Below, one piece after another: positions 12,001 to 18,000 of a stretch of 64,000 bases of DNA. Where the stretch lies: NCBI GenBank assembly GCA_000165345.1, contig CM000431.1:512001-576000 (forward strand), given 5' to 3'. Numbering within the stretch: position 1 is the first letter of the stretch; the number at the start of each line of letters is the position of its first letter. The position numbers were made by a program.

Positions 12001-15000
12001 TCGCCAGCTTTTTCTGTTCTGGTTTTATCAAAAATATCACCTTTAGGTGAATCTTGGCTATCTGAATGTTCCATTGTACCCATTAAATATGTATTTGTAA
12101 AAGAGTCGGATCTCTCAAAATTAATTTCGCTTGAAGTATCATTTTGTGTTTGAGATACCTCCAAATTCTCCAGCTTAATGCCCTCAATACTAATCTCGTC
12201 AAGATTAGAAGTATCGATGGCTAAAACAGGCGTACTACCACCTTCTGTTGGTTCACCAACTTTGGAGTCAAACTTTTCTTCTTTATCCTTGGAACCGGAG
12301 CTGTTAATTTGGAGATTATACTCATTGATTGAGCCTAAAACTCTTTGAACATATTCCGGGGACTTATTCTTTATTGGAGGATAATTTGTAATCGCTTCAA
12401 AGGCGTTTAGATCAAATTGGTATAAAGCTTCTTGATTGTGGTTAAGTATTAGTCTTGCCCATTTCGTACGGAAGCTCTCAAATCTGGTAAGCAATTGAAT
12501 TATTGAAGAAGAATCAGAAGAATTTTGTGAAAGGTTGAACTGTTTCTTTTTGTTATTTATTGGAACACAAATGTTTAGTCCTTCCCAGATGAGTCTAATT
12601 AGCTTAGAATCAAAAGGAGCTACATCAGCTGGGTTTGAGTATATATCTGAGAAAAGTGATGGAATCCTCAATAGAATGGGATCCTTTTCAATATTACTAG
12701 AAAGTACCCCAATATAATTCATAATTTCAGGGTCTTGGTGATTTTTTTCATACTTAATATTCCCTTTTTCATTATAATATCCTTTACAATGGTTATAGGC
12801 CTCGATTATTTCCTTGATCTTCTGATTTAAAGTTCTAAACCAATCTGAAACTACTCTGGGGGTTCTTTGTGGGAAATAATAAGTACCAGAAACTGCCTCG
12901 CTAGTTTTTGCAGTTGGAGTGGTTAGATCAACTGTTGCTTGAGATGAAGGAACCCCTATGGGGAAATCGATCATTGGGGTAGATGAAGTTTGGGCATTCA
13001 ATGATCCTTGGCTATTCTGCTCTATGTTCTGCTCCTTATTTTGTTGTGCATTCTTAGGAGAATAGTAAACCCAACAGTCTGTACGCAGTTGAACAAGCAG
13101 TTTAATTACCGGATTATTAAGTATATCACGCAATGTTTGACTTTTCTTTTCATTTAAAACATCAGACCCACCTGACTTCATATCCAAGTCATCTTGTTCT
13201 CCATCAGAATATCCATCTCCATCGCTTATTTCGCCATATTCATCTCCCAATTCCGATTCGTAGTAAAGATCAATAAAGTCGTTTTGCGGATCGTCGTCGC
13301 AAAAAAAAACATTTGGGTTTGAGTAATCAGCATTAATTAGTTCTGAAGTTTGAATTGAAGTTGTTGTAACGTTGTCATCGCCCTGATCAGCAGTATGGTT
13401 TCCTCTGTCTGCATTCCTACTATATAGCTCGTCCAGTGACAAGCCTAGGTCATCCACGAGCTCTGAATCGTCAATAAAATCATCAAATACATCATAATAA
13501 TCCTCTCTGCTTCTATTAGCTCCACTGGCTCCCGTCATGGTCATTGGATTAAAGTAATACTCCCTTGGGTCGCATAGCAATCCTTGTTTTGAAAGTCTTG
13601 TAGACATCTCGTGTACTCTCTTTCTCAAGACATTTTCATTCACATTTTGCGAATCTTGCTTACTATTCGACTTAATTGTATCCAAAAATGAAGTAATATC
13701 TTCATAAGTTCTTTCACTTTCCTCGTTTTCCTTCTCTTCAATATCCTTATTTTCCTCTTCTCCAATATCATCATTTTCCTTTGAATCTTGAGTAAATGAC
13801 TTCTCCTTTAAAATATTGTCCCATTTTCTTCTACCAGTATCAGACTCCCTCTTCTCCACTACGTTCTCTTCTCCAAAAGCTTCCATACAAAGATCCCGAA
13901 AAGATACGATACTTGGCAATTGTATATGTTTTTCTAGTTTATCACTATAAATATACTTTATTGTTTCCTTTGGTATTTCTAAGAACAAACTCAGACCTCT
14001 CTCAAATCTAAAGGAATCTATCAAAGATTCATATTCACTAGAATCATCGTCATCTTCTTCTGCAACGCTTGTATCATCCTCCTGAGGTATTTCCTGTTTT
14101 GGCACCTCTTGATCCTTTTTACTCTCTTGTACGCATTGTGTTTCATGCGATTCAGTTACATCCGAAGCTTTGGGGTTTGTAGGAGTCATATGAAAGAATT
14201 CCTCTCTACTAAAAAAATACCTCTAAGTTAAGAGAAGTGCATCACTTATTTAATGTAGTTTTTCAACCGTACTCGCTTTCAATTATTATTATGCCCAATT
14301 CTAATATTTGGCACAACTTGTGGCGGGAAACTAAAGTGTTCTCAAAATAAGATTAACAAAGAAACTATACTAAACAGTTTAAATGTAATGGAATGGATCA
14401 CCATTGTTTTAACCTGACCCCTAGAGTAAACTAAAGCAAAACTTCGGAACTTTGCTCCCCTTAATCTGTAAATGCATGCATTAAAACGATAGACTGAGAT
14501 TAAGTGGAACACCAAAAGTCTATACTCTAACATCAAAACAATCCAATATTGCTATTAATCCATGCAGTAAACAAGGGGAATATAACTGTACTTAGTTTTA
14601 TATCAAAACAATGTTTACTAACTGAATGGCTTTGGAATTTAATTAATCAAAATATACTTAGCTTACTGGAGAAAGTTCTGCAGTGCTACAATTTGCAGTG
14701 CTTCCACCCTCCGTATTCTTCCTAACTCTTACCCAGCTATCTAATCTTCTCTGCTTGAATCCTTTATTACCTTCTTCGTATTTGCCGTCTTGTAGCATTG
14801 TGTCAGAATTTATATCTGGAGATCCTGGAGTTGAAACCGAAGCATGAGGAACGGGCTCGGAGTAAATTGTATAATCGGCTTCAAAAGATTCTGCTCCGTC
14901 AATTCCTGGACTTGCAAAAACCTCTTCATTTGACTGAGAAAGAGGAATATGAATTATTCTGCGTGAATTGAAGTCGTGTGAGCGATTTGATGAGGTATTG

Positions 15001-18000
15001 CCAGACTCGTGTTCCATCTCCAAAGCTCCCTTACAATCTGTTGTATCCTTCTGCGGAGATATTGGAGTTAGCAAGTTCTCTTGAGATTGTACCATATAAC
15101 TACTTTGACCTCTTTGTGGAGCAGGATAACCTACACTATCCTGCGATGAACCCATGAAAGGGATACTTCTTCTAAAAGGAGTCTTCTCTACACTTTCGGG
15201 AGTTGGAGTGGGCCTTCCAAATGCTCCACCTTCGCTTAAAGTCTGGGAATCTTTTTCTGAAAATCCAATCCCACCAATAGTAAGAAATCCTGTTTTTCTC
15301 TCTTCACGTGTTCCCTTTAATTCTTGAGACTCTTCGTTTTTTTCTTCATTTTTCTCGTCCATACTTTTTAAGGTTAAATCCACAGAGTTGGCTTTGCTTG
15401 ACCTACTTGGTTTTGGAAAAGGTACGGACAATGAGGAAGACAAAGATAACTGGTTGGCAACATCCATATCTCCATCAAAAGAGTTGCTATATGATAATGT
15501 TTCGCCTGATACCCATCTAGGTTTCAAATCACCTTCCTCGTTTTTTCCAACGGCAGTTCTGCTATTGGTTGCATCTCCTGCAGAAACTCCAGAAAAGTTT
15601 GGCATAACCGAATTTATATTGTCTAACTGAAAGTCTTTGTTGTTATAAAAACTCAGCTTTTTCAATTTTGTCCCAACTGAAAAATTTAAACGGTACTCTC
15701 TCCCCACACACTTGTCCACCCGGAAATTCACATTCCCATCTTTTGGCGGTAACTTTAGAGTTCCCCCCATGCTAAATTTACCTCTCTCCCATGCAAAACA
15801 TTGAAAAATTGGTATTGAACTCTCTTCCAGATTTTCATATGTATAATAGTGAATTGAGCTCTCCAAACCCATGGAGGTGTTGAATAAATAGAATCTTGAT
15901 CCCGAATTTGACGCTGTAATTAGCCATTCTCCATTGCTAGAAATTGAAGGTCTTTGGCTTGGATCCAATAATCCTGCATTTTCCTTTTCATAAAATACTT
16001 TATTTGAATCTATTGCTATTGCACTCAGGTCCTTGCTAAATGAAAGAATTCCAGATACGCTATATATATAAATTGTTCCTTTCCTTGTTTGAAGAGCAAG
16101 TTTGTTATATAATTCATCAGCCTCCATCCATGTAATTCCTCTTTGAGCGTCTTCATCCTTCTGAGGAGAAAATTTAAATGCGCAGGCCCTTTCTGCACTC
16201 CCACATGATGCTTTCCGGATATCCCAAACCTTAATATGTCCATCTGTGCATCCTCCAGTTGCTAAATAATTTTTCTCGCTAAGAAAGGCCACTCCACTAA
16301 CCGAAATACTCTTGTCGCTAATCATCTTCTCTCTTCCTATACTCTTCCTTACACTGTGTTCATGTATTCTATTTAACTCAAATTTGGGAGCTAAATGAAT
16401 CTTTTCTATTGATTCATAATAGCTCTCATTGAGATTCTGGCCCCCTTCAGGAACCTGAGTAGACGGACTTATTGAAATTTGACCAGGAATTAATTTATTT
16501 GAAGCTGTTCTACTTCTACCGACATTTCCTTGCCCCAAATAAAAACATTTTGAATGAATTGATCTATCATCATAAATCCTTAGACTCCCATCATTACCCA
16601 CTGTAGCTATTAATGATGATGATTCAGCCGAAATAGCAAATCTCTTTACCCATTCTTTATGTGCCCTAAGCTTACAACTCTCCTTTTCATGTTCCATGTC
16701 AAACTTTACCAAGAAGCTGTCAGTAGATGAAGAATAGATATATCTTTCGACTTTCTCTGAATAAAACCCTACATTTTGAAACTTTGTATCTGTAACGGTA
16801 CCGCTGTGTAGCTTTCTAGAAAAAATTCTTTCGTCTTTTCTAATTACAATTCCTGGCTCAGTGAATCTTTCTATAAATTTATCTTCAGTTGAATAAAGAG
16901 AAATATGGCCTTCTGAATCTCCAACACAAAGTCCAGCTCCCCCCAAAAGATTCCTGGAATAAACCATAGAAATTGGTATCCCCAGCCCATGATATATATC
17001 AGTAATACTAAATTGATTAGTCAACTTATTTCTCTCCATTTTTTAAGCCCCAATCAGCAACTATAAAAAAAAAAGAAATAATTCAACAAAATATTGGCAA
17101 AAACTAACAAAACAAAACTGAACTATCATATATCTCTCAAATCTCTGATTTTGCATTCTGTTTAGTACCGAAAAATTCTCATTTTTTGGCATGCCTTTAG
17201 TATTAGTGTGTATTCCCGCCAAGCTACGCATTTTAGAAAAAAATTAAACTAATCGGCTAAATAAATATAAATATTAGGAACTTAAGGCTGAGGAGATTTT
17301 TTATCTAAATGCGCTCAACAATTTCCTCCTCCAGCTCACTATTGCTATATTCATATTCTTCAATAGGGATATCATCAACATTTCTAATGTGATCATCCTG
17401 AGGGTAAATACTGTTAGAGATTACGGAGCTATTCTGATCATTTCTAGGATGTTTGTTTGTATTTGAAAGGATAGAGCTCCTATCGTAACTATTGCTTGAA
17501 ACAACTCCTTTAAAATGTGATGTAGCGATATTATTGGGGATTCCACCTTCAATGGTGATTAATTTGTTGATAAAATCATTGACTTTGACCGAAAGTAGGT
17601 ATTTATTCCTATTTTTATGTTCTGACTTTTTTTGATGGCTTAAAGATGAAACATACATGGAGGATAAACTCCTCTCTCCAGAAAGGAAGATCATGGCATG
17701 CCTGATTTGTCCACTAGACCATCCTAGATTAAGCTTCTTGACTAATGTAGTAAAAGTGTTAAGATCAATTCCCGTTGAAGAGGCTGTGTTAACTCCGAAA
17801 TTCGCTTCTAAGTAGTTAAGCAATAAATTAACATCTAATTCTCCCATGAAGTGTTGCTGGATTGCATGGTAGCAAATAGCAAATTCTGTCTCGTTTAATT
17901 TATTATCTTTATCATAATCGAAGGTAGTTAATACATCCTTAGCATGCTCAGAAGAATAGTATAGACCTTCTGAAACTAAATAGTACCTAATAGTGTACTC

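What the first reader, a model, noticed from the sequence alone, without database searches (positions are those of the whole stretch)
14190..17230. E2F-like GGCGGGAA boxes sit 130-175 bp upstream of two cell-cycle-type genes (HUN-motif protein and Cdt2-like WD40)
In an otherwise ~25% GC intergenic background, TGGCGGGAAA (14321..14330) and TTCCCGCC (17213..17220) each lie in the sense orientation just upstream of a gene whose product looks S-phase related. One is a candidate Hpc2/ubinuclein-type histone-chaperone subunit. The other is a candidate Cdt2/DTL-type CRL4 adaptor. Both classes are classical E2F targets in animals and plants. An E2F-like motif is known to be over-represented upstream of DNA-metabolism genes in Cryptosporidium, so this may be a small cell-cycle regulon seen directly in sequence. 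Both protein identifications rest on short conserved motifs recalled from memory and need checking.
Basis: partly seen in the sequence, partly recalled or inferred. Interest (0 to 1): 0.55.

Follow-up and report, generated by a model that had tools for sequence, protein, structure and literature searches.

The report
Known E2F-like promoter boxes, Cryptosporidium
Two conserved GGCGGGAA boxes sit upstream of a histone-chaperone-type gene and a Cdt2-like gene in Cryptosporidium parvum, but they are ordinary copies of an already published E2F-like promoter motif found before most genes of this parasite, not a special cell-cycle regulon.

Summary
The window is Cryptosporidium parvum Iowa II chromosome 3. 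The boxes are real: GGCGGGAA lies at 14322-14329 (+), 133 bp before the ATG of cgd3_1990, and at 17213-17220 (-), 174 bp before the ATG of cgd3_2000. A third copy lies at 21007-21014. All three are intergenic (0.07 expected) and conserved across Cryptosporidium species.

Both protein guesses hold. cgd3_1990 has a Pfam HUN domain above the curated cut-off. cgd3_2000 is a divergent Cdt2/DTL-family WD40 protein (profile-profile probability 99.9%, both WDxR motifs aligned, a PIP-like C-terminal motif).

- The motif is published as E2F-like "Motif 4, TTTGGCGGGAAV" (Oberstaller 2013). It was reported as over-represented in the expression cluster that contains cgd3_2000.
- In that study, clusters enriched for the two E2F-like motifs held 637 and 1,456 motif-bearing genes, of 3,281 analysed.
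- E2F motifs are the top motifs in sporozoite open chromatin.
- In this window an E2F-like core precedes 22 of 28 genes, including a PP2C, a K+ channel, a myosin and RON11/Rpp14.
- The two boxes have opposite orientations relative to their genes.

Verdict: real, conserved, probably functional promoter elements of a known class. No specific cell-cycle regulon is shown.

The parts
14321..14330 (+). E2F-like box TGGCGGGAAA. It reads TTTCCCGCCA on the coding strand of cgd3_1990 and lies 133 bp upstream of that gene's ATG.
   Evidence: It is the top-ranked conserved 8-mer of 461 in the 8-species alignment. It sits -134 to -139 from the ATG in 7 species, while its distance to the upstream stop codon varies from 284 to 360 bp. 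C. muris keeps the variant TTACCGCC.
17211..17222 (-). E2F-like box CTTGGCGGGAAT on the coding strand of cgd3_2000. The GGCGGGAA core (17213-17220) lies 174 bp upstream of the ATG.
   Evidence: The GGCGGG core is kept at -166 to -188 in 6 species. It is absent from C. muris.
21007..21014 (-). Third exact GGCGGGAA, in the divergent promoter between cgd3_2010 (RON11) and the Rpp14 gene. It lies about 95 bp from the Rpp14 ATG and about 390 bp from the RON11 ATG.
   Evidence: It is identical in six species and lost in C. muris.
11094..14189 (-). cgd3_1990, a 1031-aa protein with a HUN (Hpc2/ubinuclein) domain at aa 226-271, core sequence YYDVFDDFIDDSEL.
   Evidence: Pfam PF08729, E 6.7e-7, 29.7 bits against a cut-off of 26.9. 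It matches EAK89099.1 exactly; UniProt names it 'Hpc2-related domain-containing protein'. HUN hits are on record for 6 orthologues.
14658..17039 (-). cgd3_2000, a 793-aa divergent Cdt2/DTL-family WD40 protein. The propeller spans about aa 20-420. DxR motifs are YDDR (155-158) and WDIR (271-274). A PIP-like motif QRRLDSWV lies at 762-769.
17187..17195 (.). TGGCATGCC, a GCATGC (ApiAP2-type) box about 20 bp gene-proximal of the cgd3_2000 E2F-like box. It is a probable second promoter element.
   Evidence: AAAGGCATG is invariant in six species. The motif class BGCATGCAH is described in PMC3734150.
14473..14480 (.). TGCATGCA box in the cgd3_2000-cgd3_1990 intergenic region, about 290 bp upstream of the cgd3_1990 ATG.
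   Evidence: It is the second most conserved block in the alignment.

Best explanation
The boxes are conserved instances of the known Cryptosporidium E2F-like promoter element (Motif 4, TTTGGCGGGAAV). They most likely act as proximal promoter sites bound by the parasite's E2F/DP heterodimers, which are encoded by two E2F and two DP genes. They sit about 135-190 bp upstream of the start codons, work in either orientation, and help drive transcription of cgd3_1990 (an Hpc2/ubinuclein-type HUN protein) and cgd3_2000 (a Cdt2/DTL-type CRL4 substrate receptor).

They belong to a very broad promoter class used by most genes of this compact genome. They do not mark a dedicated cell-cycle regulon.

Shown here: the sites exist, exceed chance, are confined to promoter-containing intergenic DNA and are phylogenetically conserved, and both protein families are correctly identified. 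Inferred: E2F/DP binding and transcriptional activity.
For: Over-representation. GGCGGGAA occurs 3 times against 0.068 expected in intergenic DNA and never in coding DNA.

Promoter restriction. GGCGGG or GGCGCC cores occur in 11 of 19 promoter-containing intergenic regions and in 0 of 6 convergent ones.

Footprints.
- The cgd3_1990 box is the single most conserved 8-mer, and it is anchored to the ATG rather than to the upstream stop codon.
- The cgd3_2000 core is kept in 6 species.
- The third box is identical in 6 species.

Literature.
- Motif 4 (TTTGGCGGGAAV) is E2F-like and over-represented in 47 clusters. Cluster 19, which contains cgd3_2000, has the MEME consensus GGCGGGAA in 84% of its members (PMC3734150).
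- E2F1- and E2F6-type motifs are the top motifs in sporozoite ATAC-seq peaks (bioRxiv 10.1101/2025.01.17.633476).
- Cryptosporidium retains E2F/DP (PMC12246861).

Proteins.
Against: - No direct evidence exists that Cryptosporidium E2F/DP binds these sequences. The 2025 review states that most regulatory components lack experimental validation.
- The cgd3_2000 box degenerates to GGCGGGGG in two species and is absent in C. muris.
- The transcription start sites are unknown to me.
- The cgd3_1990 box could also act inside a possible cgd3_2000-cgd3_1990 polycistron, where inter-gene E2F motifs are common.
Confidence: 0.78

Rival explanations
1. The GGCGGGAA variant marks a small, specific S-phase or cell-cycle regulon that co-regulates chromatin and replication-control genes such as the HUN protein and Cdt2.
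For: - Cdt2 is an E2F-activated gene in mammals.
- Cluster 19, which has GGCGGGAA in 84% of its members, also holds an Slx1 resolvase and an MCM3-associated protein.
- E2F-like motifs were first found upstream of DNA-replication genes.
- The exact 8-mer occurs at only three neighbouring promoters in the window, while other promoters use GGCGCC-type cores.
Against: - The third exact copy serves RON11 (a rhoptry membrane protein) and/or Rpp14.
- Motif 4 is enriched in 47 clusters that together hold 751 genes, 637 of them carrying it, spanning many functions and all expression timings.
- Three adjacent sites among 11 E2F-positive promoters is not significant (about 9/165 by my own count).
- The Spartan gene, a replication-coupled repair gene in the window, has only a weak core.
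- HUN/ubinuclein acts in replication-independent H3.3 deposition (own knowledge).
Confidence: 0.15
2. The boxes are functional cis-elements but are bound by a factor other than E2F/DP, for example an ApiAP2 or zinc-finger protein that recognises G/C-rich cores.
For: - No binding data exist for Cryptosporidium E2F/DP.
- Two species have GGCGGGGG, which resembles the G-box G.GGGG assigned to ApiAP2 factors.
- Conserved GCATGC boxes sit beside the sites.
Against: - The motif matches the canonical E2F consensus (TTTCCCGCC / GGCGGGAA) closely.
- Cryptosporidium is the only apicomplexan genus reported to keep E2F/DP, and its promoters are dominated by this motif.
Confidence: 0.1
3. The boxes are chance G/C-rich octamers with no function.
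For: Each is a short 8-bp motif. One box is not kept exactly in chipmunk genotype I or C. canis, and it is absent in C. muris.
Against: - Three are observed against 0.068 expected in intergenic DNA.
- One box ranks first of 461 8-mers for conservation.
- Position and orientation are fixed relative to the ATG across species.
Confidence: 0.02

Closest known systems
Cryptosporidium parvum E2F-like Motif 4 (TTTGGCGGGAAV; Oberstaller, Joseph and Kissinger 2013, PMC3734150)
   Same: - Same sequence: CTTGGCGGGAAT, GTTGGCGGGAAT and TGTGGCGGGAAA.
- Same location in upstream intergenic DNA.
- Either strand is used.
- The published cluster 19 containing cgd3_2000 has the consensus GGCGGGAA.
   Different: Nothing substantive differs. 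Added here are gene-level coordinates, cross-species conservation and the identities of the downstream proteins.
Canonical metazoan and plant E2F/DP sites (TTTSSCGC; TTTCCCGCC / GGCGGGAA) upstream of G1/S genes, including mammalian CDT2 (PMC2194621)
   Same: - Core sequence.
- Position close to the promoter.
- A Cdt2 orthologue as the downstream gene.
   Different: - In Cryptosporidium the motif precedes most genes of all classes and timings.
[quoted passage not shown]
- Binding and cell-cycle dependence are untested.
Cdt2/DTL (denticleless), substrate receptor of CRL4; human structures 9c5t and 9uwg
   Same: - Propeller colinear with the DTL family: hhalign 99.9%, 317 columns.
- Two DxR motifs in adjacent blades.
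- A long disordered C-terminal half with a PIP-like motif near the end.
   Different: - Very divergent: about 20% identity, and only 22 bits pairwise to a mollusc DTL.
- About 60 residues inserted between the blades.
- The PIP-like motif is Q-x-x-L-x-x-W-V rather than [KMQ]-x-x-[ILMV]-x-x-[FY]-[FY].
Hpc2 / ubinuclein / yemanuclein (HUN or HRD domain; subunit of the HIR/HIRA histone H3.3 chaperone)
   Same: A HUN domain above the Pfam gathering score, with the acidic DDFIDDSEL core.
   Different: No other ubinuclein domain was detected. The rest of the 1031-aa protein is low-complexity and genus-specific. The family acts independently of replication, so calling it S-phase related is loose.

Membership tests
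C. parvum E2F-like Motif 4 (TTTGGCGGGAAV) | Sequence match to the consensus | tested here: met
   The three sites read CTTGGCGGGAAT, GTTGGCGGGAAT and TGTGGCGGGAAA.
C. parvum E2F-like Motif 4 (TTTGGCGGGAAV) | Located in upstream (promoter-containing) intergenic DNA and over-represented there | tested here: met
   3 of 3 sites are intergenic, against 0.068 expected, and none are in coding DNA. E2F-like cores occur in 11 of 19 promoter-containing intergenic regions and 0 of 6 convergent ones.
C. parvum E2F-like Motif 4 (TTTGGCGGGAAV) | Gene belongs to an expression cluster in which the motif is over-represented | tested here: met
   cgd3_2000 is in cluster 19, whose MEME and AlignACE consensus is GGCGGGAA, present in 84% of members. 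cgd3_1990 was not found in the held part of the table.
Functional E2F/DP binding site | Occupancy by E2F/DP and dependence of transcription on the site | not testable with these tools
   No binding data are available. The review states that validation is lacking.
Functional E2F/DP binding site | Match to the canonical TTTSSCGC consensus | tested here: met
   The 14323-14330 site matches TTTCCCGC exactly. The 17213 site reads ATTCCCGCC, which is 7 of 8 on the T-tract but has the full GGCGGGAA core.
Cell-cycle (G1/S) E2F regulon | Motif enriched specifically upstream of replication and chromatin genes and not upstream of other genes | tested here: not met
   A GGCG[GC] core precedes 22 of 28 genes in the window, including PP2C, a BK channel, a myosin, RPSA and PRP38. 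In the literature, 161 of 200 clusters of all timings show the motifs. No genome-wide test of my own was possible.
Cell-cycle (G1/S) E2F regulon | Periodic, S-phase-linked expression of the two genes | not testable with these tools
   The single-cell atlas paper and its tables are not held.
HUN / Hpc2 / ubinuclein | HUN (HRD) domain | tested here: met
   PF08729, E 6.7e-7, 29.7 bits against a cut-off of 26.9, at aa 226-271. Precomputed HUN hits exist for 6 orthologues.
HUN / Hpc2 / ubinuclein | Association with HIRA/Hir and H3.3-H4 binding | not testable with these tools
   No solved-structure match was found for the HUN region. Biochemistry is needed.
Cdt2 / DTL | WD40 propeller colinear with the DTL family rather than a generic WD40 protein | tested here: met
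   - hhalign of A1 against a 29-member DTL alignment gives probability 99.9, E 8e-32 and 317 columns.
- A DTL-family HMM hits all Cryptosporidium orthologues as one colinear domain of about 107 bits. Most generic WD40 controls split into 2-9 repeat-sized fragments.
- Of 90 non-Cryptosporidium hits under 850 aa in a 1.84-billion-protein search, 46 are full and 24 partial DTL-like.
- The anchor protein P0083 matches human DTL at 7e-104.
Cdt2 / DTL | Two WDxR/DxR motifs (the DDB1-CUL4 adaptor signature) | tested here: met
   NDGSLRIYDDR and TDGHIKVWDIRK are invariant in 8 species. They align to the family's RDGxVxLWDxR and DGxxKxWDxR.
Cdt2 / DTL | C-terminal PIP box that binds PCNA (human 706-713, MRKICTYF) | tested here: inconclusive
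   KGFKQR[RK]LDSW[VL]R is invariant at 762-769 of 793. It fits Q-x-x-L-x-x-W-V followed by basic residues, but not the strict [FY][FY]. The reference motif is in PMC6312923.
Cdt2 / DTL | Predicted fold closest to the DTL structure | tested here: inconclusive
   The AlphaFold2 model from the 8-sequence alignment failed, with mean pLDDT 28.8, so no fold search was run.

The most novel reading that the evidence does not exclude
Cryptosporidium, the only apicomplexan genus reported to retain E2F/DP, may keep an ancestral E2F-to-Cdt2 (CRL4) replication-control circuit. In that case the asymmetric GGCGGGAA variant (E2F6-like) and the palindromic TGGCGCCA variant (E2F1-like) would be read by different E2F/DP pairs, and the GGCGGGAA subset would include chromatin and replication-licensing genes. 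The conserved C-terminal QRRLDSWV motif of cgd3_2000 would then be a PCNA-docking PIP box, which would show that this feature predates metazoans.
Probability: 0.15. Interest if true: 0.45.

Novelty: already known. Interest (0 to 1): 0.2.

Why it matters
Little changes. The result confirms at single-site resolution, with cross-species footprints, what genome-wide motif studies of C. parvum already reported.

There are two modest gains:
- cgd3_2000, annotated only as 'WD repeat protein' in C. parvum, can be annotated as the Cdt2/DTL orthologue with a candidate PCNA-binding motif.
- The three conserved sites are convenient, well-defined targets for promoter mutagenesis or E2F/DP occupancy experiments, which the field still lacks.

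Tried and rejected
- Structure route. The AlphaFold2 model of cgd3_2000 from the 8-sequence genus alignment was unusable (pLDDT 28.8), so no fold search was made.
- Direct sequence comparison with solved structures was only marginal. DTL was the best natural hit at 3.8e-5 (single sequence) and 9e-8 (profile), and designed WD40 repeats scored higher. I therefore used a transitive profile route instead.
- The HUN region gave no meaningful match to solved structures.
- Expression timing. cgd3_1990 and cgd3_2000 are not mentioned in any held main text. The single-cell atlas paper is not held. The polycistron preprint has no held supplements.
- Rfam found no RNA family in the window.
- I considered whether the three neighbouring GGCGGGAA sites reflect a local duplication or a cluster-specific subtype. 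The flanks are unrelated and the adjacency is not statistically significant.
- I considered whether the cgd3_1990 box belongs to the 3' end of cgd3_2000. I rejected this because its distance to the cgd3_1990 ATG is fixed at 134-139 bp, while its distance to the upstream stop codon varies from 284 to 360 bp.

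
Full report
**Source and gene map.**
The six window proteins I looked up are identical to proteins of Cryptosporidium parvum Iowa II chromosome 3. The relevant genes all lie on the minus strand:
- cgd3_1990 at 11094-14189 (1031 aa).
- cgd3_2000 at 14658-17039 (793 aa).
- cgd3_2010 at 17305-20622, in two ORFs joined by an intron. It is annotated as one 1089-aa gene in C. 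hominis.

cgd3_2010 is CpRON11, a rhoptry membrane protein (bioRxiv 10.64898/2026.07.21.739819). Seven hydrophobic segments in the ORF fit that assignment. A small Rpp14 gene lies divergently upstream of it. Beyond that come a PP2C gene, the choline kinase gene and CCA1.

**Observation.**
- GGCGGGAA occurs exactly three times in the window: 14322-14329 (+), 17213-17220 (-) and 21007-21014 (-). Shuffles expect 0.48.
- All three are intergenic. A first-order Markov model of the 14.9 kb of intergenic DNA expects 0.068 (P about 5e-5). Coding DNA has none, with 0.33 expected.
- The orientation claim is wrong. On the coding strand, cgd3_1990 sees TTTCCCGCCA and cgd3_2000 sees GGCGGGAA.

**Conservation.**
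I fetched the syntenic locus from seven other sources: C. hominis, chipmunk genotype I, C. ubiquitum, C. canis, C. felis, C. muris and an unnamed Logan assembly.
- Upstream of cgd3_1990, TT.CCGC is the only contiguous invariant block among eight sequences.
- There, TTCCCGCC ranks first of 461 8-mers for conservation.
- That box sits 134-139 bp from the ATG in seven species, while its distance from the upstream stop codon varies from 284 to 360 bp. It is therefore tied to the cgd3_1990 start.
- C. muris has the variant TTACCGCC.
- Upstream of cgd3_2000, the GGCGGG core is kept at -166 to -188 in the six species with usable sequence. Four are exact and two read GGCGGGGG.
- That core is absent in C. 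muris. It cannot be judged in C. felis, whose contig ends in a poly-G run.
- The third box is identical in six species.
- Conserved GCATGC-type boxes lie near both sites: TGGCATGCC at 17187-17195 and TGCATGCA at 14473-14480.

**Protein identities.**
cgd3_1990 has a HUN domain (PF08729, E 6.7e-7, 29.7 bits against a gathering score of 26.9, aa 226-271). UniProt already calls it an Hpc2-related domain protein.

For cgd3_2000, Pfam gives only generic WD40 matches. The evidence for Cdt2/DTL membership is:
- Human DTL is the best natural solved-structure hit, but marginally: 3.8e-5 for the single sequence and 9e-8 for the profile.
- A profile of eight Cryptosporidium orthologues, searched against 1.84 billion representatives, found a Cardiosporidium protein next (7e-38).
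- In the same search, among 90 non-Cryptosporidium hits shorter than 850 aa, 46 were full-propeller and 24 partial relatives of a mollusc protein.
- That mollusc protein matches human DTL at 7e-104.
- Profile-profile comparison with 29 such DTL-family members gives probability 99.9%, E 8e-32 and 317 colinear columns.
- A DTL-family HMM hits every Cryptosporidium orthologue as one long domain of about 107 bits. Most generic WD40 controls break into 2-9 repeat-sized pieces.
- Both DxR motifs align: YDDR at 155-158 and WDIR at 271-274.
- The C-terminus carries an invariant KGFKQR[RK]LDSW[VL]R, a PIP-like Q-x-x-L-x-x-W-V motif at 762-769 of 793. It resembles in position the human Cdt2 PIP box at 706-713 of 730 (PMC6312923).
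- The C. felis orthologue is already named 'denticleless protein'.
- A structure model failed (pLDDT 28.8).

**What the motif is.**
Oberstaller et al. 2013 (PMC3734150) list 'Motif 4, TTTGGCGGGAAV' as E2F-like and over-represented in 47 of 200 expression clusters. A second E2F-like motif, Motif 3 (DTTGSCGCCH), is over-represented in 114 clusters.
- Their Table S3 counts 637 motif-bearing genes in the Motif 4 clusters and 1,456 in the Motif 3 clusters, of 3,281 genes analysed.
- Cluster 19, which contains cgd3_2000, has the MEME and AlignACE consensus GGCGGGAA in 84% of its 13 genes.
- The authors stress that E2F-like motifs occur in clusters peaking at every time point and across many functional classes.
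- A 2025 preprint reports E2F1- and E2F6-type motifs as the top motifs in sporozoite ATAC-seq peaks. It also finds them in 160 of 201 inter-gene regions of polycistronic transcripts.
- A 2025 review notes that E2F/DP binding in Cryptosporidium has not been validated experimentally.

**Specificity within the window.**
- GGCGGG or GGCGCC cores occur in 11 of 19 promoter-containing intergenic regions and in none of 6 convergent ones.
- With the relaxed core GGCG[GC], 22 of 28 genes have a site within 600 bp upstream.
- These include PRP38, TCTP, PP2C, a BK-type K+ channel, RPSA, a Nop56/58 protein and a myosin.
- The third exact GGCGGGAA lies between RON11 and Rpp14, neither of which is a cell-cycle gene.
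- The motif is therefore a general promoter element. Its presence does not single out cell-cycle genes.

**Conclusion.**
The E2F-like nature of the motif agrees with the literature. Mammalian CDT2 is indeed E2F-activated (PMC2194621).

A small cell-cycle regulon is not demonstrated, and the evidence on motif breadth argues against it. The ubinuclein/Hpc2 family works in replication-independent H3.3 deposition (own knowledge), so calling it S-phase related is loose.

The most likely mechanism is that the parasite's E2F/DP proteins bind these proximal promoter elements, which work in either orientation. This is inferred, not shown. Everything essential was already published, so interest is low.

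Noticed in passing
It lies in the divergent promoter between cgd3_2010 (CpRON11) and the Rpp14 gene and is identical in six Cryptosporidium species.
   Followed up: yes
window 17187-17195 and 14473-14480: GCATGC / TGCATGCA (ApiAP2-type) boxes are conserved close to the E2F-like boxes. AAAGGCATG is invariant in six species, about 20 bp gene-proximal of the cgd3_2000 box. This suggests combined E2F plus AP2 promoter architecture.
   Followed up: partly
window 20790-20830 (- strand; GTGCACAC at 20817-20824): A strongly conserved block GATTGTGAGAGCAAAAAGTGCACACATACAC...CCCCCATGTAAATTAT lies in the RON11-proximal half of the RON11/Rpp14 intergenic region, roughly 150-225 bp upstream of the RON11 ATG. 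It contains GCACAC and G-box-like motifs and is probably the RON11 promoter proper.
   Followed up: partly
window 17305-17847 and 18028-20622 (-): cgd3_2010 is split into two ORFs by a roughly 180-bp intron. It is annotated as one 1089-aa gene in C. hominis, C. ubiquitum and C. canis, but as two genes in chipmunk genotype I and the Logan assembly. This looks like an annotation inconsistency.
   Followed up: partly
window 14658-15700 (- strand; C-terminal half of cgd3_2000): Several short motifs are invariant even in C. muris within an otherwise disordered tail: NQLSLSSSLS[VI]P, TP[FY]RRSIPF..SSQDSVGYPAP, I.IPLSQ.NEE and the PIP-like KGFKQR[RK]LDSW[VL]R. They are candidate docking motifs of unknown partners.
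   Followed up: partly
window 7808-10639 (+), especially 8000-10000: cgd3_1980 contains a stretch of 45-50% GC in a genome of about 32% GC. It has only a faint AP2-domain hit at aa 892-920 (E 0.29). UniRef labels a C. hominis orthologue in the same protein cluster an AP2/ERF domain protein.
   Followed up: partly
window 17265-17276: AATATTTATA is invariant in six species, about 30-40 bp 3' of the RON11 stop codon. It may be a 3'-end or polyadenylation signal.
   Followed up: no
window-wide intergenic regions: TTGGCG[GC]-type cores lie 70-390 bp upstream of 22 of 28 genes and are absent from all six convergent intergenic regions. This gives a clear local picture of how pervasive the E2F-like element is.
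   Followed up: yes
L006:1-45 (C. felis JABXOJ010000005.1 contig end): The contig ends in a poly-G run 212 bp upstream of the Cdt2-like gene. This is probably a sequencing or assembly artefact, and it prevents scoring the box in C. felis.
   Followed up: no
window 57380-64000 (+), 44690-50941 (-), 54827-55513 (+): Neighbouring genes include the giant type I fatty-acid synthase (which runs off the window end), a myosin with an RCC1-repeat tail, and a Spartan/SprT protease gene. The Spartan upstream region has only a weak GGCGCT core.
   Followed up: partly
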